A DNA stretch of 64,000 bases from an uncultured Eubacteriales bacterium (GTDB taxonomy: Bacteria > Bacillota > Clostridia > Lachnospirales > Anaerotignaceae): assembly GCA_949743895.1 (NCBI GenBank), contig CATJUX010000044.1, positions 3,850 to 67,849 on the forward strand, in the 5' to 3' direction. Of this stretch, positions 17,249 through 60,057 are shown piece after piece. The notes below the pieces were generated by a model. It saw only the letters and a list, made by a program, of their open reading frames with translations. It ran no database searches and was not told where the DNA came from. The stretch's first letter is position 1; every line of letters starts with the position of its first letter. The position numbers and the translations under genes were made by a program.

Positions 17249-18361
17249 TTATTCTATTGTGAAGTCGACTTTTTTCTTTTTGTCATCTTCAGAATCGGAG
17301 CTGCTGTTTTCGTCAACAGGTGTTTCAATTCCGTTCAATGTGTTAAGTCTTTCTTGTATTGTGTTGAGATATTTTTCCGCATCATGAGTGCCTCTCATGG
17401 TTTCGCCAACAATATGGCCATCGGAATCCACAAAAACTGTTGCTGGTATGGCCTCAAGGTTTGCCTGAACCCATGAACCAAGGGTTTGATCCATAACTAT
17501 GGTCAATATGTCATTTGCTTTGGCGTCTTCTTTAGCTTTCAAAGCTTTTTCGTTGGTTTCTTCACTGGGAGCGTCAATGACAGCCTCAATTATATTCACA
17601 GGAAGACGTTCTGCATTTACCATTTCATATGTCTTTTGAAGTGTGGCAAACTCGTCAAAGTCGGGGTATGTGTATGTTCCGCCAAAATGAACCATTGTTA
17701 GGTCATATGATGCAAATATAGAACTGTCAACGGGCGCTCCCTCAAGTGTGGAAGTCACAAATGTTATATATGAGTTGAGTTCATTTGTGCGTTCTTCCAA
17801 TGTTTTGTCATCAAAACTTCTTGTGGAAATGCTTTCTTTGAGTTTTGGTATCGTTCCAACAATTTTGTTATAATTTTCAATGTCTTTTCCGCTCAAATCT
17901 TTTTCAGCTATAGTGGAGTCCCAAAGCAGATAATATGAATATTCACCCTGAACACCAACATTCTCGGAGTTTTTGAAAAAATTGATTGTTTCGTCAAGCT
18001 TTCCTTCGTTGATAACTGATGTTTTGGCCAGAAGTATCTCACATATTGGAGTTATCACAGAATAGGTATTTATGGAAGGGTTGTTGTTGAGTTTTTCAAT
18101 TCCTTCATCGTTTATATAGCCATAAACTATTTCGGCAAATGAATTGTCGTCACGCACGGTGAGGGGATATATGTTTGTTTCCTTAAACTCGTTCCATTCA
18201 TCGGGGATTTTATAGCTTAGGCCAATTTCGTCAATTGAAATGTCATTTTCACTGGCTTCAGATGAAGAATTCTCAGAAGAATTATCTTGGGTTTTGCCAC
18301 AGCCTGACAAAATTCCAAAGGCCATGGCAACACATAATATGACAGGTAGAAATTTTTTCAT
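17249..18361 (-). CDS. Lipoprotein with C-terminal TlpA/thioredoxin-like domain lacking CXXC
   Basis: Lipobox ILSGC; Ser-rich linker; C-terminal DLTMVHF..., IPATVFVDSDGHIVG resemble TlpA-family strands. Confidence 0.7.
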   Translation of the reverse strand: MKKFLPVILCVAMAFGILSGCGKTQDNSSENSSSEASENDISIDEIGLSYKIPDEWNEFKETNIYPLTVRDDNSFAEIVYGYINDEGIEKLNNNPSINTYSVITPICEILLAKTSVINEGKLDETINFFKNSENVGVQGEYSYYLLWDSTIAEKDLSGKDIENYNKIVGTIPKLKESISTRSFDDKTLEERTNELNSYITFVTSTLEGAPVDSSIFASYDLTMVHFGGTYTYPDFDEFATLQKTYEMVNAERLPVNIIEAVIDAPSEETNEKALKAKEDAKANDILTIVMDQTLGSWVQANLEAIPATVFVDSDGHIVGETMRGTHDAEKYLNTIQERLNTLNGIETPVDENSSSDSEDDKKKKVDFTIE

Positions 18362-52594: not shown

Positions 52595-52839
52595 AACACC
52601 ATCTCCATATTTAATTATGTAGGTTTTAAGCTTTCAGTTGATGACAGCATTTGTGCAAAGTTGTGACACTTTCGCATTATACTGTTTACGCATGAGCAAA
52701 TAGTATGCTTTTATTAACTTGAGGAAAGCTATATATTAGCGTTGTAAAAAGCAGTATATCAAATTTTTGGAAGATAGTCAAAACAATGTTTTTGTTGTCG
52801 AAACCAAATTCCTTTATGTGTGAAATGAGACAATGCAAA

Positions 52840-52875
52840 TTTTGATACAAGCAAGATACATTTTTGTTGTAAAAT
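52840..52875 (+). promoter_or_regulatory. Direct-repeat operator plus extended -10 upstream of the response regulator
   Basis: GATACA at 52844 and 52855 (11-bp period), then 9 bp, then TAAAAT at 52870; no consensus -35. Confidence 0.65.
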
Positions 52876-52898
52876 TTATGGTTAAGGAGGTGTTTCAA

Positions 52899-53558
52899 AT
52901 GGTTAGGATACTCATTGTTGAAGATGAGAAACCAATTTCAGATTTGATCAAGATGAATCTTCTTGAAGAAGGGTATGAATGCACTTGTGCTTATGACGGG
53001 CAGGAAGCTGCTGATATTATAGAAAAAGAAACATTTGATTTGATTTTGCTTGACATAATGCTTCCGGCCATAGATGGTTATGAGCTTTTTGAATATATAA
53101 ATTTCTATCACACACCAGTTATATTTTTGACAGCAAAAGCAGATGTGAAAGACAAAGTTAAAGCGCTTAAAGCGGGCGCTGAAGACTATATAACAAAGCC
53201 GTTTGAGATAATGGAGCTTTTGGCAAGAGTTGAAAACGTGCTTAGAAGACACAACAAAACTTCTAAAGAGATAGAATTCAAAAACATAAAAATCGACATA
53301 TGCGCAAGAAAAGTTTTGATGAACGGTGAACACATATATTTGACGGCAAAAGAATTTGATCTTTTGATCCTGCTTGCAAGGAATAGAAACAAAGCGCTTT
53401 ATCGCAGCCAGATATATGCCAGTGTGTGGGGAGAGGATTATATGGGTGACAGCCGAACAGTGGACTTGCATATACAACGCCTCAGAAAAAAGCTGTCGCT
53501 TAAGTGTGAAATTGTTTCTGTTTATAAAATAGGATACCGTTTGGAGGTTCGGCAATGA
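52899..53558 (+). CDS. OmpR-family response regulator
   Basis: IVEDE, LLDIMLP, FLTAK, DYITKPF; winged helix (RTVDLHIQRLRKK, VYKIGYRL). Confidence 0.96.
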   Translation: MVRILIVEDEKPISDLIKMNLLEEGYECTCAYDGQEAADIIEKETFDLILLDIMLPAIDGYELFEYINFYHTPVIFLTAKADVKDKVKALKAGAEDYITKPFEIMELLARVENVLRRHNKTSKEIEFKNIKIDICARKVLMNGEHIYLTAKEFDLLILLARNRNKALYRSQIYASVWGEDYMGDSRTVDLHIQRLRKKLSLKCEIVSVYKIGYRLEVRQ

Positions 53559-54976
53559 ATTTTTTTTGGAAAATATTTTTTGCAGTCATGTTTATAAGTG
53601 TTTCTTGCATGGCCTCTGGGGGTTACATATTGATCAATTCAAACTTCAGTTTTCTTTTGGAAAATGAAGTTCAAAGGGCATATGACTATGGCGACATTGT
53701 GTATTATTCCATATCAAACGAGTTTAGGGACATGGCTGAACAAAGCTATTATATGCAGACAGATGTGGAAGTGGCAAAAGTGGCCGATTCAATAAATATA
53801 AACAGCATGAATCAAAAAATTGACTTCAACATAATTGATGATGACGGAACGGTTGTTTTTTCATCTTTGAACAGAAATTTTGGAAATGAAATTATATGCC
53901 ACTTGAATGATAATGAGGCGGGGTGGTCTTTGAAGGAAACGAAAACAGGCTTATATGTTCAGGCAGTCAGAACGGCTGTGTTTCATGAAGATAAATTTTA
54001 TATTGAAACGGCAAGAGATGTTTCTTTTATTTTTGAAAACCAAAGACATCAATATGAAATGCTTTTGAAAATAATGGTGTGCATGTTGATTTTTGGCGGA
54101 TTTATAACATTTGTGGTTTCAAAGATGCTTATGAAGAGGGTTGTCAATTTGACAAAAGTCACAAAAAAAATTTCTGCTGGAAATTTGGGGAAAAGAGCCG
54201 ATGTGAGGGGCGATGATGAAATTGCCATTCTTTCAAAAAACTTCAACAAAATGGCAGAGGAGCTTGAGGAGAAAATTAACAGGCTCAAAGATGAAGCTGA
54301 AAGGAAGGAGCTTTTTGTTGGAGCATTTTCTCATGAAATTAAAACGCCGCTCACTTCTGTGATTGGCTATTCTGACATGTTGATGCGCAGTGAAATGAGT
54401 GCAGAGAAGATACATATATGTGCGGAATATATTTTTTCGGAAGGAAAACGTCTTGAAAATTTGTCGATGAAGCTTCTGGAACTGATTGTTTTGAAAAATC
54501 AGAAAATAAAACTCATTCCAACTGACATGAAAGAGTTTTTTGACAGTGTATGCTTTATTGTTTTGCCTCAAATTGAAAAAAGCGGCATAGAACTTATATG
54601 CAATGCCAAAAGCGCTGTGATAAACATGGAGCCGGAACTTATGAAAGCTGTGCTTATAAATGTGATTGACAATGCAAAAAAGGCGATTGATGGAAAGGGC
54701 AAAATTGAAATAACAGGGGAAGAAATTGATGGTGTTTACACAGTGAAAGTTTGTGACACAGGAAAGGGAATGGAAACACATGAACTTTCAAAAATAAAAG
54801 AAGCATTTTATATGGTTGACAAATCACGCTCCAGAAAACAGGGAGGAGCGGGGCTGGGGCTTGCCATATGTGATGAAATTTTGAAACTTCATGGTTTTGA
54901 AATATCATTCAAAAGTGAAATTGATGTTGGAACAACAGTTTTTATATATATGGGGGAAGCCAAATGGAAAAATTGA
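53555..54976 (+). CDS. HAMP-domain sensor histidine kinase
   Basis: Two TM helices, HAMP (DEIAILSKNFNKM), FSHEIKTPLT, DNAKKA, DTGKG, GLGLAI. Confidence 0.96.
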   Translation: MNFFWKIFFAVMFISVSCMASGGYILINSNFSFLLENEVQRAYDYGDIVYYSISNEFRDMAEQSYYMQTDVEVAKVADSININSMNQKIDFNIIDDDGTVVFSSLNRNFGNEIICHLNDNEAGWSLKETKTGLYVQAVRTAVFHEDKFYIETARDVSFIFENQRHQYEMLLKIMVCMLIFGGFITFVVSKMLMKRVVNLTKVTKKISAGNLGKRADVRGDDEIAILSKNFNKMAEELEEKINRLKDEAERKELFVGAFSHEIKTPLTSVIGYSDMLMRSEMSAEKIHICAEYIFSEGKRLENLSMKLLELIVLKNQKIKLIPTDMKEFFDSVCFIVLPQIEKSGIELICNAKSAVINMEPELMKAVLINVIDNAKKAIDGKGKIEITGEEIDGVYTVKVCDTGKGMETHELSKIKEAFYMVDKSRSRKQGGAGLGLAICDEILKLHGFEISFKSEIDVGTTVFIYMGEAKWKN

Positions 54977-55827
54977 GGCAGAGCTTTGTTATACTTATGC
55001 TTTTTGTTTTGCTGACGGCCGTGGCTGTGGCGCCTGTTTTTGTCACAAACCACAACAACGAAAGGCTTTTGGGCAACATTTCGGTGAAAAAGCTTCCAGA
55101 GGAAAAGCAGGAAATTAGCAGCGGAACACATTCCAAAGATGTCAAGGAGAGAATTAAAATTATAAAAAAATCTCTTGTTGTCAAAACATTCAGATACAAA
55201 AAATATCAAAATGATGAGACATATTATGAAAAAATGACAAATATGAATGTTTTGAGCATAATGGAAGAACAGCTGAGCTTCATTCAAAATTTGGGGCTGA
55301 GCTTTGATGATGGACATGCCATATCAATGGTGGAAAAAACAACATATATGGACACAGAAAACCCAAATGAGGAAGTCAGCATTTGGAAAATCGATGCTGA
55401 ATACAATGATTTTTATATCACAGCTTATATAGATGCAAAAACCAATGTGGTGTATGAAATAATTATACTTTTGAAAAAACTCAGTTTTATTGACGACTCA
55501 TATGCTTTATATCCCGAAAACTTCATAAAAGAATTTTCTGATTATTTGGAGTTCGATTATGATCACATTGAGGAAAATGAAGAACAATTTTCGGTTGGCG
55601 CCGACTGGTCTGAATTTATGATGAACCTTTTTATATTGTCGGTTAATGAAACAACAGGCGAGCTTGTGGAATATAGCATTGAGAGAAGCGAGTCAATTGG
55701 CTTTGATTTTTTTGAAGAAAGTGAATATATATATCCATACCCTATTTATGAAAGAGGCTACACTGATTTTTCAAACATTAAAATCATGAGGAACATTGAC
55801 AATTTGTATTTGATAAAGGATCGATAA
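54964..55827 (+). CDS. Hypothetical membrane-anchored protein
   Basis: 287-aa ORF overlapping the HK stop; SD GGGGGAAG; N-terminal hydrophobic helix; acidic extracellular part. Confidence 0.75.
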   Translation: MEKLRQSFVILMLFVLLTAVAVAPVFVTNHNNERLLGNISVKKLPEEKQEISSGTHSKDVKERIKIIKKSLVVKTFRYKKYQNDETYYEKMTNMNVLSIMEEQLSFIQNLGLSFDDGHAISMVEKTTYMDTENPNEEVSIWKIDAEYNDFYITAYIDAKTNVVYEIIILLKKLSFIDDSYALYPENFIKEFSDYLEFDYDHIEENEEQFSVGADWSEFMMNLFILSVNETTGELVEYSIERSESIGFDFFEESEYIYPYPIYERGYTDFSNIKIMRNIDNLYLIKDR

Positions 55828-55886
55828 AAACGGAGTGTAATTTGCGTTTCGAAATTTTGTTTTAGAAATAAACGTGGGAATTTGAA

Positions 55887-55940
55887 TATACAGTTTTGAT
55901 ACAAGAAATAGCCATTTGTGAAACACTTGTTTTGTAAAAT
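55887..55940 (+). promoter_or_regulatory. Four 11-bp-phased repeats plus extended -10 upstream of the vanY-like gene
   Basis: TATACA/GATACA/TAGCCA/GAAACA at 55887/55898/55909/55920, then 9 bp, then TAAAAT at 55935. Confidence 0.65.
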
Positions 55941-55986
55941 GAAATGCAAACAAAAGTGTTTTATGTTGAAACAAGGGGGCTATGGA

Positions 55987-56871
55987 ATGAAGAATATGAA
56001 AAATTCCCGAAAAAACAAATTTGATTGTGATAAAAAGGGACAAAGGAGAAAAACAAGGAAGACAAAAAGAATCAAAAGAGCGCAAAGAAGGAGGCAAATG
56101 CTGCTGTCATCACTGATTTTTGTGTCTTTGGTAAGCACCACAACTGTGTGCAGGGCGGCGTTTGAAAGGTTGGTTCTTGTTGAACAAAGTTATGATTCAG
56201 GCGGAAGCATATTTGAACATGGAAGACAGAGCGGTTTTGTATATTCTGCTGAAAATGATGATGGCAGATTGAAGGAAAGTGAACAGATGAATGACAATGA
56301 AAATGCAGACAGTTCAGCATGGAATTTGATTCTTGTTAACCAATGGAATGAATTGCCAGAAGACTTTTCTGTTGATTTGATAGAATTGAACAATGGACAC
56401 TCTGTTGACAAAAGAATTTATCAGGATTTGCAGAACATGATGAATGCGGCGCGAAATGAAGGACTTTCGCCAATTATATGTTCGTCATACAGAACACTTG
56501 AAAAACAAAGAGTTCTTTTCAACAATAAGGTTGAAAGCTACATTGCAGAAGGCTGCACAAGACAGGAGGCCGAAAAAGAAGCCTCAAAATGGGTGGCATT
56601 TCCTGGAACAAGTGAACATCACACAGGGCTTGCCGTGGATATAGTGGCACTCAGCTATCAAATGTTGAATGAGGAACAGGAAAACACGGCTGAACAGAAA
56701 TGGCTTATGGAGAATTCATATAAATATGGGTTCATACTTAGGTATCCAACTGACAAAAGTGACATCACAGGAATTGGATATGAGCCATGGCACTATCGCT
56801 ATGTTGGAAAAGAGGCCGCTGCCCAAATTCATGAAAAAGGAATTTGTCTTGAGGAATATGTATGTGGATAA
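55987..56871 (+). CDS. M15B (VanY/LdcB-family) carboxypeptidase
   Basis: SSYRT, SEHHTGLAVD (SxHxxGxAxD), EPWHYRYVG; basic N-tail plus TM helix. Confidence 0.9.
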   Translation: MKNMKNSRKNKFDCDKKGQRRKTRKTKRIKRAQRRRQMLLSSLIFVSLVSTTTVCRAAFERLVLVEQSYDSGGSIFEHGRQSGFVYSAENDDGRLKESEQMNDNENADSSAWNLILVNQWNELPEDFSVDLIELNNGHSVDKRIYQDLQNMMNAARNEGLSPIICSSYRTLEKQRVLFNNKVESYIAEGCTRQEAEKEASKWVAFPGTSEHHTGLAVDIVALSYQMLNEEQENTAEQKWLMENSYKYGFILRYPTDKSDITGIGYEPWHYRYVGKEAAAQIHEKGICLEEYVCG

Positions 56872-56872
56872 C

Positions 56873-56914
56873 AAAAAAAGACTTTAGTTACCAGGTATGG
56901 CTAAAGTCTTTTTT
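56873..56914. terminator. Bidirectional terminator between the vanY-like gene and tRNA-Pro
   Basis: AAAAAAAGACTTTAG / CTAAAGTCTTTTTT. Confidence 0.85.
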
Positions 56915-56924
56915 ATATAAAAAA

Positions 56925-56997
56925 TCGAGGTGACAGGACTCGAACCTGCGGCTTCTGCGTCCCGAACGCAGCGCTCTACCACCTGAGCCACACCTCG
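56925..56997 (-). tRNA. tRNA-Pro(CGG)
   Basis: Minus strand CGAGGTG...CACCTCG-A; anticodon loop TTCGGGA. Confidence 0.97.
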
Positions 56998-57013
56998 ACA
57001 AAACACATATATT

Positions 57014-57041
57014 ATTTTAATACAAAAATTTCAAATGTCAA
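57014..57041 (-). promoter_or_regulatory. Sigma-A promoter of tRNA-Pro
   Basis: Minus strand TTGACA-16 bp-TAAAAT. Confidence 0.65.
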
Positions 57042-57079
57042 CTGAAATTTAATCATAATTAAAATAAATTTTGAATGTT

Positions 57080-57107
57080 CACCACATTTTGTCCTTTAAC
57101 ATATATT
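57080..57107 (+). promoter_or_regulatory. Possible mother-cell (SigK/SigE) promoter
   Basis: CACC-16 bp-CATATATT fits mACm-N16-CATAnnnT. Confidence 0.4.
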
Positions 57108-57131
57108 GAAATTATAAAGGAGGTTGAAAAA

Positions 57132-57797
57132 ATGAGATACCCAGAAAAAAATGAATTGGCTGGCTGCAAGCCTGTTATCAAACCGGATTTTGAAAAGGCA
57201 TACCTTCGCTTTATGCATGCGTTGCCAAGTGATCCGCCGCTGAATGTGGACATATATTTGAATGGAAAACTTGTTGTTAAGAATCTGAAATTTGAGGACT
57301 TCACGGAATATATCACTGTTAAGGCCGGGGCATACACTGTTCAGGTTTTCCCAACAGGCAATCATCTTGATCAGCTTGTTGACATGCGCATAGTTCTCAG
57401 TGATGAAGAAATTGCGACAGCGGCTGTTATAGGAACAGCAGATGAAGTTGAGGTTGAAGTTTTTTCAGACGTTCAAAGGCCAATAGATCCCGACTGTGCG
57501 GCCATGCGGTTTATAAACCTTTCGCCCGACAGCGGCGGAGTTAATATATATATTGATGACACGCCAGTTGTGTATGACTTGCAGTTTATGGAAGTTACAA
57601 ACTATCTTTCACTTTTGCCGGGAAGACACACAATGAAAGTTGAGATAGACAGCAGCAAGGAAATTGTTGTATCACATCCCAATATGGTGCTTAAGGGAGG
57701 CTATTTCTACACAACATATGTTGTGGGGTTGGCCTATGGAAGGCCATATATTGAGGTTTTGATTCCACTTGAAGGAACGAGCTACCTCACATTCTGA
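57132..57797 (+). CDS. DUF4397-domain protein (two repeats)
   Basis: LRFMHALPSDPPLNVDIYLNG and MRFINLSPDSGGVNIY repeats; SD AAGGAGG. Confidence 0.85.
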   Translation: MRYPEKNELAGCKPVIKPDFEKAYLRFMHALPSDPPLNVDIYLNGKLVVKNLKFEDFTEYITVKAGAYTVQVFPTGNHLDQLVDMRIVLSDEEIATAAVIGTADEVEVEVFSDVQRPIDPDCAAMRFINLSPDSGGVNIYIDDTPVVYDLQFMEVTNYLSLLPGRHTMKVEIDSSKEIVVSHPNMVLKGGYFYTTYVVGLAYGRPYIEVLIPLEGTSYLTF

Positions 57798-57832
57798 CAA
57801 AACAGGCTATAACTGAATAATTTTGGTTGACA

Positions 57833-57879
57833 GAGGCATATTTTTCTGAAGTTTTTGGAAAATTATGCCTCATATTTTT
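57833..57879 (+). terminator. Terminator-like hairpin after the DUF4397 gene
   Basis: GAGGCATATTTTTC / GGAAAATTATGCCTC followed by ATATTTTT. Confidence 0.55.
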
Positions 57880-57889
57880 GAGGCTTAAA

Positions 57890-57918
57890 ACATTTTGAAA
57901 GTGTCAAACACATAGAAT
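57890..57918 (+). promoter_or_regulatory. Possible SigE promoter of the LysM-GH18 gene
   Basis: ACATTTT-14 bp-CATAGAAT versus SigE kCATAtt-N14-CATAnnnT. Confidence 0.45.
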
Positions 57919-57940
57919 TTCTTTAGGAGGTGTTTATATA

Positions 57941-59227
57941 ATGACAATACACGTTGTCAAAGCGGGTGAAACGCTTTTTTCAATTGGCCGGGAATATAAC
58001 ATGAGTGCGACATACATTCAAAATATAAATCAATTGCCAAACCCCAACAATCTTGTTGTGGGTCAGGCTATAATAATAGCCAAACCGGCTGTTTCATATG
58101 TTGCCAAAAGCGGTGATGATTTGTGGGGAATATCACAAAGATATGGTGTTTCGCTCACTGTCATTTTGAGAAACAATCCTTATTTGCTCACGAGAGTTCT
58201 TGTTCCTGGAGATGTTGTGGTGATAGAATTTGAAGATGTTCATTTGGGAGCGGCCAAGGTGAATGGCTATGTATATGACACTGTCAATGTGACATATTTG
58301 AAAAGCGTTCTTCCCTATCTGACATATATTTCGGTTTTCACATATGGAATCAGAAGAGATGGAACACTTATAGAAGCCAATGACGAAGAAATCATTTCTT
58401 TGGCACGTCTTTCAGGGGTTGCGCCACTTCTTCACTTGTCAACACTTGATGAAAGCGGCGTGTTTTCAACAGCGCTGGCGGGAACAATTTTGAACAGCTC
58501 AGCTTTGCAGGATATTGTGATTGAAAATATATTAACCATATTAGAGAAAAAGAAATATTATGGGCTTGATATAGACTTTGAATATATCCCGGTTTCTGAC
58601 AGGCAAAATTACGTAAACTTTATTTCAAAGCTGACAACAAGGCTGAACGCCAGGGGATATATTGTTATAGCTGCATTGGCGCCAAAGGTCAGTGCAAATC
58701 AGCCGGGAACGCTCTATGAAGGGCATGACTATTTTGGCATTGGGGCAGCAGCCAACTATGCATTCATTATGACATATGAATGGGGGTATACATATGGCCC
58801 TCCAATGGCTGTGGCGCCTTTGAACAAGGTTAAGGAAGTTTTGGACTATGCTGTGACCGAAATACCAGCCGATCAGGTGCTTATGGGCGTTCCGACATAT
58901 GGCTATCTTTGGACATTGCCATTTGTGAGGGGACAGTCAAGAGCTGTGTCTCTTTCGAACATATTGGCTGTTGAAATTGCCGCTGAAAATGGCGTTGAAA
59001 TTAAATATGATGAGACAGCACAATCGCCTTTCTACAATTTCACTGATGTGAACGGAACATTGTGTGAAGTTTGGTTTGAAGACGCAAGAAGTGTTGAGGC
59101 CAAGCTGAGGCTTATAAACGAATATGGCCTTGCCGGGGCGGGATATTGGAACATGGATAGGCCGTTTCCTCAAAATTTGATGATGTTAAACCTTCTTTAT
59201 GAAATAATACAAGAGACTATTGCCTAA
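57941..59227 (+). CDS. LysM-domain GH18 spore cortex/germination hydrolase (YdhD/YaaH-like)
   Basis: Two LysM repeats; GLDIDFEY catalytic motif; MTYEWG, VWFEDARS. Confidence 0.92.
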   Translation: MTIHVVKAGETLFSIGREYNMSATYIQNINQLPNPNNLVVGQAIIIAKPAVSYVAKSGDDLWGISQRYGVSLTVILRNNPYLLTRVLVPGDVVVIEFEDVHLGAAKVNGYVYDTVNVTYLKSVLPYLTYISVFTYGIRRDGTLIEANDEEIISLARLSGVAPLLHLSTLDESGVFSTALAGTILNSSALQDIVIENILTILEKKKYYGLDIDFEYIPVSDRQNYVNFISKLTTRLNARGYIVIAALAPKVSANQPGTLYEGHDYFGIGAAANYAFIMTYEWGYTYGPPMAVAPLNKVKEVLDYAVTEIPADQVLMGVPTYGYLWTLPFVRGQSRAVSLSNILAVEIAAENGVEIKYDETAQSPFYNFTDVNGTLCEVWFEDARSVEAKLRLINEYGLAGAGYWNMDRPFPQNLMMLNLLYEIIQETIA

Positions 59228-59316
59228 AATATTGAAAAATGTTAAATTATGTTTATATAATTGAAACTTGAAATTTTGGCCGCTAATTTGCACTGTGTTT
59301 GAAAGGAGCTGTTCTT

Positions 59317-60057
59317 ATGAACTTAAAGGGCAAAACAGTTCTAGTGACGGGCTCGTCTCGTGGAATAGGCAAGGCAATTGCATTTGCTTTTGCAAAGGAA
59401 GGTTGTAACATTGTGCTTAATGCCTCAACAAGTTCTGATGAACTTCTTAAAGCTCAGGAGGAACTTAAGGCAATGGGGAGCTATTCATATTCATATCTTG
59501 CCGATGTGTCTGACTATGAAAGCTGCAGGGAAATGTTTTCGAACATAACAAATGTTTATGGCAATGTTGATGTGCTTGTCAACAATGCAGGGATAGCACA
59601 TATAGGGCTTTTCACAGAAATGGTTCCAAAGCAGTGGGACAACATAATCAACACAAACATTAAATCATGCATAAACTGCACACATTTGGCGCTGCCCAAA
59701 ATGATTAGCCGCAAAAGTGGCACAATTGTGAACATTTCATCAATTTGGGGCGACAGGGGTGCGTCGTGTGAGGCGGTCTATTCTGCCACGAAGGGCGCTG
59801 TGAATTCGTTCACAAAGGCAATTGCCAAGGAAGTTGGCCCAAGCGGAATACGTGTCAATGCCATTTCTGCCGGCGTGATCGACACAAAAATGAATGATTG
59901 TCTTAATCAGGAGGAAAAAGAGATTCTCACAAATGAAATATCGCTCATGCGTTTTGGAAAGGCCGAGGAAATAGGCGAGCTTGCTGTGTTTTTGGCAAGT
60001 GAAAAAGCCTCGTTTATCACGGGGCAGGTTATAACAATTGATGGCTGCATGATTTGA
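59317..60057 (+). CDS. SDR oxidoreductase, YmfI/FabG-like
   Basis: TGSSRGIG, VNNAG, ISSIWG..GASCE..YSATKG. Confidence 0.85.
   Translation: MNLKGKTVLVTGSSRGIGKAIAFAFAKEGCNIVLNASTSSDELLKAQEELKAMGSYSYSYLADVSDYESCREMFSNITNVYGNVDVLVNNAGIAHIGLFTEMVPKQWDNIINTNIKSCINCTHLALPKMISRKSGTIVNISSIWGDRGASCEAVYSATKGAVNSFTKAIAKEVGPSGIRVNAISAGVIDTKMNDCLNQEEKEILTNEISLMRFGKAEEIGELAVFLASEKASFITGQVITIDGCMI

What the first reader, a model, noticed from the sequence alone, without database searches (positions are those of the whole stretch)
52840..56871. Self-contained two-component regulon: identical phased-repeat promoters drive the RR-HK operon and a VanY-family peptidase
Upstream of the regulator the sequence is TTTT-GATACA-AGCAA-GATACA-TTTTTGTTG-TAAAAT (52840-52875). 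Upstream of the M15B peptidase it is TATACA-GTTTT-GATACA-AGAAA-TAGCCA-TTTGT-GAAACA-CTTGTTTTG-TAAAAT (55887-55940). Both share TTTTGATACAAG exactly (14 of 15 bp including the next three bases), an 11-bp repeat period, a 9-bp gap to a TG-preceded TAAAAT, and no consensus -35. Tandem repeats one helical turn apart over the -35 region are the established binding mode of OmpR/PhoB-family activators. I infer that the regulator activates itself, its kinase, an unknown membrane protein and a peptidoglycan carboxypeptidase: a vanRS-vanY-like envelope-stress or antibiotic-sensing module without vanHAX, with a readable operator. It abuts the 3' end of tRNA-Pro, with a MATE pump divergent on the other side.
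Basis: partly seen in the sequence, partly recalled or inferred. Interest (0 to 1): 0.7.

Follow-up and report, generated by a model that had tools for sequence, protein, structure and literature searches.

The report
Autoregulated sensor module controlling VanY-like peptidase
A two-component sensor, a conserved unknown membrane protein and a cell-wall D-Ala-trimming peptidase appear to be switched on through one regulator-binding DNA repeat kept across many gut and anaerobic Bacillota; it is a well-supported but fairly ordinary relative of vancomycin-type (VanRS-VanY, DdcRS-DdcY) modules.

Summary
Both repeat arrays sit exactly where stated. The genes are an OmpR-family regulator, a HAMP/HisKA kinase, a 287-aa membrane-anchored protein X with no known family, and a VanY-B/G-like zinc peptidase.

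Within this window the shared 12-mer is not significant. Comparative evidence settles it:
- The same RR-HK-X-peptidase module occurs in Thomasclavelia, Erysipelotrichaceae, Lachnospiraceae, Anaerotignum and others.
- 17 of 21 regulator promoters carry GATRCA-N5-GATRCA, then 9 nt and a -10 box, against about 1% of background windows.
- A matrix built only from other genomes ranks the window's site first in its own genome.
- Effector promoters carry four half-sites 11 bp apart in 20 of 22 loci.
- No -35 box exists in any of 16 promoters examined.

This is PhoB-like class II activation with positive autoregulation. It is not a true van cluster: there is no VanX and no VanR operator, and scores fall below NCBI cut-offs. 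The closest functional analogue is E. faecium DdcRS-DdcY.

New here are the operator and the X family (617 clusters, no fold match). The signal is unknown and no transcript data were available.

The parts
52844..52860 (+). P_RR operator: two direct half-sites GATACA-agcaa-GATACA, 11-bp period, one predicted regulator dimer site
   Evidence: sequence. Unique exact match in the genome. Top hit, 27.9 bits, of a matrix built from 15 orthologous sites that excluded this one. Conserved in 17/21 loci.
52870..52875 (+). -10 hexamer TAAAAT of P_RR, exactly 9 nt after the box; no -35
   Evidence: The N9 spacing to a TAnnnT hexamer is conserved in all 16 loci with a box. Best -35 match is 2/6. No plus-strand sigma-70-type promoter was called here.
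52899..53558 (+). Response regulator, OmpR/PhoB family (receiver + winged helix; phospho-acceptor Asp52 by reading); Shine-Dalgarno AAGGAGG at 52885-52891
   Evidence: Pfam Response_reg 104 bits and Trans_reg_C 79 bits. Below every NCBIfam equivalog cut-off, including the VanR models. Recognition-helix segment SRTVDLH[IV]QR[LM][RK]KK is nearly invariant among orthologues.
53555..54976 (+). Sensor histidine kinase: two hydrophobic segments flank a ~140-aa predicted extracytoplasmic loop, then HAMP, HisKA and HATPase_c; start overlaps the RR stop (ATGA)
   Evidence: Pfam, NCBIfam below all cut-offs, overlap read. Full-length relatives are 33-51% identical and scattered across Bacillota.
54964..55827 (+). 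Protein X: N-terminal membrane anchor plus alpha/beta extracytoplasmic domains; 13-nt overlap with the kinase gene; candidate co-sensor
   Evidence: No Pfam or NCBIfam hit. A counterpart in the same position in all related loci aligns with it, with P24, D157 and Y194 conserved. 617 representative clusters. AF2 pLDDT 77.6. No PDB fold match, best E 0.42.
55887..55925 (+). P_pep operator: four half-sites TATACA / GATACA / TAGCCA / GAAACA at an 11-bp period (two predicted dimer sites)
   Evidence: Phased four-site score 19/24, and at most 15 at any other period. The same strong-strong-weak-strong layout with N9 to the -10 occurs in L038, L054, L046, L039, L034 and L032.
55935..55940 (+). -10 hexamer TAAAAT of P_pep, 9 nt after the proximal half-site; about 46 nt from its end to the start codon
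55987..56871 (+). VanY-B/G-like M15B zinc D,D-carboxypeptidase with a very basic N-tail and one membrane anchor (catalytic domain predicted outside); the only VanY-family gene in the genome
   Evidence: Pfam VanY 146.7 bits. NCBIfam vanY_BG 225.9 bits (cut-off 400) against LdcB 92.7. PDB 6a6a/5zhf/5hnm 198 bits against YodJ/LdcB 126. Motifs SEHHTGLAVD and EPWH read. Single copy.
56874..56914 (.). Strong hairpin terminator with A- and U-tracts on either side, ending the module; likely also serves the convergent tRNA-Pro
   Evidence: RNAfold dG -17.1 kcal/mol, z = -6.8. By contrast the hairpin after X (55831-55851) is not significant (dG -5.0, z = -0.4), so read-through from P_RR into the peptidase gene is likely.
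56924..56998 (-). tRNA-Pro(cgg): right-hand boundary and synteny break point
   Evidence: ARAGORN. In the genus-mate G001, SDR, LysM/GH18, DUF4397 and tRNA-Pro are syntenic, but GntR, GntP and a dehydratase follow instead of the module.

Best explanation
This is a positively autoregulated envelope-sensing module. The operon RR-HK-X (genes overlap, so probably translationally coupled) is transcribed from P_RR. The peptidase gene has its own promoter, P_pep, and probably also receives read-through. The kinase, probably together with the membrane-anchored protein X, senses an unidentified extracytoplasmic cue and phosphorylates the OmpR/PhoB-type regulator. The phosphorylated regulator binds head-to-tail to GATRCA half-sites spaced 11 bp apart. 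The proximal half-site ends exactly 9 nt upstream of the -10 hexamer, so the array takes the place of the missing -35 and recruits RNA polymerase (class II, PhoB-like activation). P_RR carries one dimer site and P_pep carries two adjacent ones. The output is a membrane-anchored VanY-B-like zinc D,D-carboxypeptidase that removes the terminal D-Ala from peptidoglycan stem pentapeptides, lowering D-Ala-D-Ala and raising tetrapeptide stems. Shown here: gene identities, the conserved operator, its geometry, and its co-occurrence with the module. Inferred: binding by this particular regulator, activation rather than repression, the start sites, D,D specificity, the role of X, and the signal.
For: Seventeen of 21 orthologous regulator promoters have the box at <=1 mismatch, against 1.07% of 150-nt background windows; all 16 seen are followed after exactly 9 nt by a -10-like TAnnnT hexamer. 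A matrix from 15 other genomes ranks the window site first of about 4.2 million positions (27.9 bits; next 19.0). The strict composite pattern occurs 5 times in 113 family genomes (reversed control once), and 4 of the 5 are the regulator promoters of module-bearing genomes. Effector promoters have four phased half-sites scoring >=18/24 in 20 of 22 loci, and no other period scored above 16. The array follows the effector gene when it is inverted (L032) or divergent (L043). No -35 is present in any of 16 promoters. The recognition helix is nearly invariant in box-bearing loci, while the two loci with no detectable box (L037, L056) have substitutions in it and an unrelated kinase sensor domain. 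Zinc and catalytic motifs are intact, and VanY-B-like scores far exceed LdcB-like scores.
Against: The predicted P_RR start leaves only about 17 nt of leader, with the Shine-Dalgarno almost at the 5' end. The hairpin after X is not a terminator, so P_pep may add little over read-through. The two proximal half-sites of P_pep in this genome are weak (TAGCCA 3/6, GAAACA 5/6). Related modules drive other effectors (alanine racemase, TlpA-like lipoprotein), so the cue need not concern D-Ala-D-Ala. D,D versus L,D specificity is not proven by sequence.
Confidence: 0.8

Rival explanations
1. The boxes are operators for repression. The regulator sits over the -35/spacer region and blocks RNA polymerase, giving negative autoregulation and repression of the peptidase until the signal releases it.
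For: The array overlaps the core promoter, a position also used by repressors. The E. faecium ddc locus is silent in wild-type strains (PMC4161250).
Against: None of 16 promoters has a usable -35 (2-4/6), so they should be weak without an activator. A fixed 9-nt distance from box to -10 in 16 loci is expected for polymerase recruitment, not for simple occlusion. In the ddc system silence is due to kinase phosphatase activity and expression requires the phosphorylated regulator.
Confidence: 0.08
2. The repeats are bound by a different, unlinked OmpR-family regulator (for example a WalR- or PhoP-like global regulator with a similar direct-repeat site) rather than by the adjacent one.
For: Direct hexamer repeats with an 11-bp period are generic for the family (WalR TGTWAH-N5-TGTWAH and B. 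subtilis PhoP TTAACA-like repeats, from general knowledge). The regulator scores best, though below cut-off, against YycF and PhoB models.
Against: The strict box is absent from 108 of 113 family genomes, and 4 of its 5 occurrences are at the regulator promoter of genomes that own the module. A global regulator's site would be expected in every genome and at many promoters. In this genome only one further intergenic candidate exists.
Confidence: 0.05
3. It is a remnant or partial copy of a genuine glycopeptide-resistance (vanB/vanG-type) cluster that has lost its ligase, dehydrogenase/racemase and dipeptidase genes.
For: The gene order R-S-...-Y and two promoters resemble vanB (general knowledge; for vanG). 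The peptidase's best models are VanY-B/G.
Against: The four-gene layout with X and without van ligase or VanX is itself conserved across many lineages, so it is a stable unit and not a decayed one. The genome has no VanX. All Van NCBIfam scores are far below cut-off. The published VanR/VanR-G operator (T/C)CGTANGAAA(T/A)T, upstream of the -35, is not enriched.
Confidence: 0.04
4. The similarity of the two upstream regions is chance in AT-rich intergenic DNA and has no regulatory meaning.
For: Within the window alone the shared 12-mer is not significant.
Against: Conservation of sequence, phase and distance to the -10 across lineages whose kinases share only 33-51% identity.
Confidence: 0.01

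Closest known systems
DdcRS-DdcY locus of Enterococcus faecium (two-component system plus cryptic metallo-D,D-carboxypeptidase; PMC4161250)
   Same: A classical two-component system next to a VanY-type zinc D,D-carboxypeptidase with no vanHAX. Distribution among strains is sporadic; here the module is absent from the genus-mate. The expected output is pentapeptide-to-tetrapeptide conversion.
   Different: Orthology could not be tested because no Ddc sequence was available in the tools. No X-like third gene is mentioned for ddc in the paper read. The partner YkuD-type L,D-transpeptidase is absent here, though two VanW-domain proteins, a second transpeptidase family (PMC11348318), are present. 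The ddc operator is not described in the paper read.
VanR-B/VanS-B/VanY-B and VanR-G/VanS-G/VanY-G parts of enterococcal van operons (PMC4405338)
   Same: OmpR-family regulator and kinase upstream of a VanY gene. There are separate regulatory and effector promoters, direct repeats are bound by the regulator, and more sites sit at the effector promoter than at the regulatory one. The peptidase is closest to VanY-B/G.
   Different: There is no ligase, VanH/VanT or VanX in the locus, and no VanX in the genome. The operator is GATRCA-N5-GATRCA overlapping the -35 position, whereas the VanR motif is 12 bp and lies upstream of the -35. All scores are below NCBI's Van cut-offs. The extra conserved gene X sits between kinase and peptidase.
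PhoB/pho-box class II activation (two direct repeats replacing the -35, about 10 bp upstream of the -10); also WalR and B. subtilis PhoP hexamer repeats
   Same: Two direct repeats with an 11-bp period take the place of the -35 at a fixed short distance (9 nt) from the -10, with positive autoregulation.
   Different: The half-site sequence differs (GATRCA), the regulator is not orthologous (below the PhoB and YycF cut-offs), and the regulon is tiny (two, perhaps three, promoters per genome).

Membership tests
OmpR/PhoB-family two-component system | Regulator with receiver domain plus winged-helix Trans_reg_C; kinase with HisKA and HATPase_c | tested here: met
   Pfam hits are all above gathering cut-offs.
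OmpR/PhoB-family two-component system | Tandem direct-repeat operator with about one helical turn between half-sites | tested here: met
   The 11-bp period is conserved at both promoter types. No other period scores comparably.
M15B / VanY peptidase family | VanY domain above the Pfam cut-off with intact zinc and catalytic motifs (SxHxxGxAxD, ExxH) | tested here: met
   PF02557 146.7 bits against a cut-off of 25. SEHHTGLAVD and EPWH read. Aligned to solved D-Ala-D-Ala carboxypeptidases at 198 bits.
Glycopeptide-resistance van cluster (vanA/B/G type) | Presence of an altered ligase with VanH/VanT and a VanX or VanXY dipeptidase | tested here: not met
   No such genes lie between the MATE gene and tRNA-Pro. 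The whole genome has no PF01427 VanX.
Glycopeptide-resistance van cluster (vanA/B/G type) | VanR, VanS and VanY reach NCBI's curated model cut-offs | tested here: not met
   vanR_FM 187.7 against 460, vanR_ACDEGLN 180.1 against 350, HK_VanS 134 against 400, vanY_BG 225.9 against 400.
Glycopeptide-resistance van cluster (vanA/B/G type) | VanR-type 12-bp operator (T/C)CGTANGAAA(T/A)T upstream of the -35 | tested here: not met
   Consensus taken from PMC4405338. There were 70 matches at <=2 mismatches against 81 expected. The only one at these promoters is the reverse complement of the GATACA box itself.
DdcRS-DdcY-type cryptic carboxypeptidase locus | Two-component system plus VanY-type D,D-carboxypeptidase without vanHAX, sporadic among strains | tested here: met
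   Architecture. Absent from the genus-mate and from most of 113 family genomes.
DdcRS-DdcY-type cryptic carboxypeptidase locus | Sequence orthology to DdcR, DdcS and DdcY | not testable with these tools
   No Ddc sequence could be retrieved, and the 2010 paper is not held.
DdcRS-DdcY-type cryptic carboxypeptidase locus | Feeds tetrapeptide donors to an L,D-transpeptidase | tested here: inconclusive
   No YkuD-domain gene, but two VanW-domain genes. VanW domains are transpeptidases in C. difficile (PMC11348318).

The most novel reading that the evidence does not exclude
RR-HK-X is a widespread, undescribed three-component envelope-sensing cassette of anaerobic Bacillota. In this reading X (at least 600 sequence clusters, no Pfam model, no structural neighbour in the PDB) is the ligand-binding co-sensor of the kinase. 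The cassette carries exchangeable single effectors (VanY-like D,D-carboxypeptidase, alanine racemase, TlpA-like thiol-disulfide lipoprotein), each plugged in behind the same four-half-site promoter.
Probability: 0.35. Interest if true: 0.55.

Novelty: new variant of a known kind. Interest (0 to 1): 0.4.

Why it matters
VanR/VanS/VanY-like hits without vanHAX are reported constantly in gut resistome surveys and are hard to interpret. This work defines one such module as a conserved four-gene unit with a readable operator (GATRCA-N5-GATRCA-N9, then the -10). The regulon can therefore be predicted from sequence in any genome that carries it, and the unit can be told apart from genuine glycopeptide-resistance clusters. 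It also flags a sizeable uncharacterised protein family (X) that always travels with the kinase and is a candidate co-sensor. By analogy with DdcRS-DdcY, the module could shift peptidoglycan from pentapeptide to tetrapeptide stems and so change tolerance to cell-wall antibiotics in gut commensals. That remains to be tested.

Tried and rejected
- Window-only statistics for the shared 12-mer are not significant, so I relied on comparative data.
- X found nothing in 60 relatives by six-frame search, and only itself in the word-indexed 5.8-billion protein search. Only the profile search found the family.
The second was good (77.6). Neither gave a significant PDB match. The highest-probability hit, 4exr (C. 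difficile CD1622 lipoprotein; prob 0.51, E 0.76), and the monellin/cystatin-like hits are only hints of an alpha+beta fold.
- Pfam scan of 141 X members found no recurrent domain.
- The plasmid collection holds only generic kinase similarity and no orthologous module.
- The matrix runner-up on C49 lies inside a SpoIID-like coding sequence upstream of queA and is judged chance.
- The VanR consensus scan gave nothing above chance.
- Island test: synteny with the genus-mate breaks at tRNA-Pro, but the other flank (MATE, TerD, crotonase) is also absent from the 9.5 kb examined there, so a clean insertion could not be shown. GC of the module is 0.32-0.38 against roughly 0.37-0.44 in the flanks, which is suggestive only.
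- The window's TlpA-like lipoprotein (17249-18361) was tested as an extra target. It is a distant homologue of the Proteocatella effector but I saw no box in the 290 nt read upstream of it.
- The Sacco 2010 ddc paper is not held.

Full report
**1. Observation**

- P_RR is TTTT-GATACA-AGCAA-GATACA-TTTTTGTTG-TAAAAT (52840-52875).
- P_pep is TATACA-GTTTT-GATACA-AGAAA-TAGCCA-TTTGT-GAAACA-CTTGTTTTG-TAAAAT (55887-55940).

The shared 12-mer, the 11-bp period, the 9-nt gap to TAAAAT and the TG before it are all correct. No sigma-70-type promoter with a -35 is called on the plus strand at either place. The best -35 match at P_RR is 2/6.

Judged inside the window alone, the shared 12-mer is not above chance: 2 matches at <=1 mismatch against 1.22 expected. 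GATACA-N5-GATACA at <=2 mismatches is modestly enriched (9 against 3.3), and only these two sites have 0 or 1 mismatch. The exact box is unique in the 2.08-Mb genome.

The promoters are of one kind but are not identical. P_RR has two half-sites and P_pep has four. The shared 12-mer sits 11 bp farther from the -10 at P_pep.

**2. Genes**

- RR, 52899-53558: receiver domain plus Trans_reg_C.
- HK, 53555-54976: HAMP, HisKA and HATPase_c. Two hydrophobic segments flank a loop of about 140 aa.
- X, 54964-55827: 287 aa, N-terminal membrane anchor, no Pfam or NCBIfam hit.
- Peptidase, 55987-56871: VanY domain at 146.7 bits. NCBIfam vanY_BG scores 225.9 bits (cut-off 400) against LdcB at 92.7.

The RR/HK and HK/X gene pairs overlap (ATGA; 13 nt), so the three genes form one operon.

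The peptidase has a very basic N-tail followed by one hydrophobic helix, so by the positive-inside rule the catalytic domain lies outside (inference). The motifs SEHHTGLAVD and EPWH are intact. Its closest solved relatives are 6a6a, 5zhf and 5hnm at 198 bits; from memory these are VanY-B. B. subtilis YodJ/LdcB scores 126 bits. It is the only VanY-family gene in the genome.

The hairpin after X is not significant (dG -5.0, z = -0.4), so read-through into the peptidase gene is likely. A strong terminator (dG -17.1, z = -6.8) ends the module at 56874-56914.

tRNA-Pro(cgg) follows on the minus strand. A MATE pump gene is divergent on the left.

**3. Related loci**

The kinase has full-length relatives in only a few of 113 genomes of its own family. 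By a contig match this family is the one that includes Anaerotignum. Other relatives are scattered across Bacillota: Proteocatella 51%, Anaerovoracaceae 47%, and Thomasclavelia, Erysipelotrichaceae, Lachnospiraceae and others at 33-41%.

In nearly all of them the order is RR, HK, a 215-287-aa gene overlapping the HK stop, a short intergenic gap, and then a VanY-like gene. The gene in the X position aligns across all loci, with a membrane anchor carrying a conserved Pro, a helix, and an 'ID....IY' strand.

**4. The operator is conserved**

- *Regulator promoter.* 16 of 21 loci have GATRCA-N5-GATRCA at <=1 mismatch within 150 nt of the start codon, against 1.07% of background windows. In all 16 a TAnnnT hexamer follows after exactly 9 nt. 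L050 joins them once its start codon is corrected.
- *Independent matrix.* A position weight matrix built from 15 of these sites, excluding the window's own, ranks the window's P_RR first in its whole genome at 27.9 bits. The next scores are 19.0 and 16.6, and 2 Mb of random sequence gave nothing above 14.
- *Co-occurrence with the module.* The strict composite pattern GATRCA-N5-GATRCA-N9-TANNNT occurs five times in 113 family genomes, and the reversed control once. Four of the five are the regulator promoters of G000, G003, G120 and G127, which all carry the module.
- *No -35.* None of 16 regulator promoters has a usable -35 (2-4 of 6).

**5. The effector promoter**

Starting at or over the X stop codon, 20 of 22 loci have four half-sites 11 bp apart with a summed match of >=18/24. 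The background probability is <=1.3e-4 per position, and periods 8-10 and 12-14 give at most 16.

In most of these loci the layout is strong, strong, weak, strong, followed by 9 nt and a -10-like hexamer:
- Window: TATACA/GATACA/TAGCCA/GAAACA.
- L038: GATACA/GATGGA/GAGCAA/GATGCA.
- L054: GATGCA/GATGGG/GTGCTA/GATACA.

The array stays with the effector when the gene is inverted (L032). It also stays with it when the effector is divergent, as in L043 (Proteocatella).

**6. Effectors vary**

In most loci the effector is the VanY-like peptidase. The exceptions are:
- L046: the same promoter type drives an alanine racemase.
- L039 and L043: it drives a TlpA-like CxxC lipoprotein, 53% identical between the two loci.
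- L050: a sodium:alanine symporter follows X, but with no convincing box.

**7. Regulator and operator go together**

The recognition-helix segment SRTVDLH[IV]QR[LM][RK]KK is nearly invariant in box-bearing loci. The two loci with no detectable box (L037, L056) have substitutions there (SKT...; TRTVDIH). Their kinases match only from residue 145 on, so they lie outside the orthologous group.

**8. Mechanism**

The geometry puts half-sites at about -38 to -33 and -27 to -22, with no -35 and a fixed distance to the -10. That is the geometry of PhoB at pho boxes (established knowledge).

I therefore read both promoters as activator-dependent class II promoters. One regulator dimer would bind at P_RR, giving positive autoregulation. 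Two would bind at P_pep.

The output is removal of the terminal D-Ala from stem pentapeptides. Binding, activation, start sites, substrate specificity and the signal are all inferred.

**9. Comparison with known systems**

*Canonical VanR.* VanR and VanR-G bind 12-bp motifs, (T/C)CGTANGAAA(T/A)T, upstream of the -35 (PMC4405338). That motif is not enriched here. The regulator, kinase and peptidase all fall far below NCBI's Van cut-offs. The genome has no VanX. It is therefore not a van resistance cluster.

*DdcRS-DdcY.* The closest functional analogue is DdcRS-DdcY of E. faecium. That locus is cryptic and sporadically distributed, and it encodes a two-component system plus a metallo-D,D-carboxypeptidase. 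Its activation converts pentapeptide to tetrapeptide precursors for an L,D-transpeptidase (PMC4161250). Orthology could not be tested.

*Transpeptidase partner.* This genome has no YkuD-type transpeptidase. It has two VanW-domain proteins, and VanW domains form a second L,D-transpeptidase family in C. difficile (PMC11348318). A Ddc-like role is therefore possible but open.

**10. Protein X**

A profile search finds 617 representative clusters at E <= 1e-3 and 289 at <= 1e-10, mostly full-length proteins of 210-290 aa. No Pfam domain recurs among 141 members.

With the deep alignment the AlphaFold model is usable (pLDDT 77.6, pTM 0.73). It shows a long N-terminal helix followed by two helix-plus-sheet units. 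Foldseek finds no significant PDB neighbour; the best E is 0.42.

X is coupled to the kinase gene in every locus examined. That makes a co-sensor or kinase-modulator role the most likely one. This is inference.

**11. Is the regulon self-contained?**

Apart from the two promoters, the only plausible further box in the genome is C43:38911 on the minus strand: TATACA-agttt-GATACA-N9-TATAAT, 16.6 bits. It is intergenic, about 190-230 nt upstream of an operon encoding an ABC ATPase, a 714-aa CARDB/NEW3 protein and a MacB/FtsX permease. It is unconfirmed.

**12. Distribution**

The genus-mate G001 keeps SDR, LysM/GH18, DUF4397 and tRNA-Pro in order but has unrelated genes beyond the tRNA. Module GC is 0.32-0.38 against roughly 0.37-0.44 in the flanks. 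No copy was found on plasmids. The patchy spread across distant lineages points to horizontal transfer, but no mobility genes were seen.

**13. Verdict**

The system is a new variant of a known kind: a two-component-controlled VanY-type carboxypeptidase. It has a previously undescribed operator; no paper in the library pairs GATACA repeats with such a regulator. It also has a conserved third component of unknown fold.

Earlier notes of this scan show that two-component/VanY-like pairs with shared phased repeats of other sequences recur in other genomes. This tempers the novelty of the general arrangement.

Noticed in passing
G000 contig C43, minus strand, box at 38911-38880 (locus L073): A third box-plus-(-10) match (TATACA-agttt-GATACA-tgatatata-TATAAT, 16.6 bits) lies in an intergenic region about 190-230 nt upstream of an operon for an ABC ATPase, a 714-aa CARDB/NEW3-domain protein and a MacB/FtsX permease. 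It is a possible extra regulon member.
   Followed up: partly
window 17249-18361 (minus strand): The TlpA-like lipoprotein with a lost CxxC is a distant homologue (27% over 206 aa, E 3e-17) of the CxxC-bearing lipoprotein that is the effector of this sensor family in Proteocatella (L043) and Anaerovoracaceae (L039). I saw no GATRCA box in the 290 nt read upstream of it.
   Followed up: yes
L046:6240-7516; L050:6382-8061; L039:2654-3778; L043:1135-2885: In related modules the VanY-like gene is replaced by an alanine racemase (L046, full box), a sodium:alanine symporter (L050, no convincing box) or TlpA-like and other lipoproteins (L039, L043, full four-repeat box). The sensor cassette therefore seems to carry exchangeable effectors.
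   Followed up: partly
L038/L051 (Anaerotignum sp., HK at 89-1048 and 1042-1527); L052 (HK at 813-1730 and 1736-2257): In two relatives the kinase gene is split into two reading frames near residues 290-311. This is either a sequencing error or an inactivated or truncated kinase. It is of interest because loss of kinase phosphatase activity is what switches on the analogous ddc locus.
   Followed up: no
G000 contigs C61:13722-14108 and C19:5303-5689: The genome has two VanW-domain proteins and no YkuD-type L,D-transpeptidase and no VanX. The module's peptidase is its only VanY/M15B-family gene.
   Followed up: partly
L065 (G001:C112:29000-43000) against window 56924-60057: In the genus-mate, synteny (SDR, LysM/GH18, DUF4397, tRNA-Pro at 96% identity) ends exactly at tRNA-Pro. 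A GntR regulator, a GntP permease and a dihydroxy-acid/6-phosphogluconate dehydratase follow instead of the module and the MATE gene.
   Followed up: partly
window 52839-52850 (minus strand): The reverse complement of ATTTTGATACAA matches the published VanR 12-bp consensus at 10 of 12 positions. This is not above chance in the window, but it may hint at a distant relationship between the half-sites.
   Followed up: no
L040:6905-7435, L041:4153-4662, L045:6963-7466, L053:4486-5031: In Thomasclavelia/Erysipelotrichaceae-type modules a further small (167-181 aa) protein with no significant Pfam match follows the peptidase gene. It is absent from the window.
   Followed up: no
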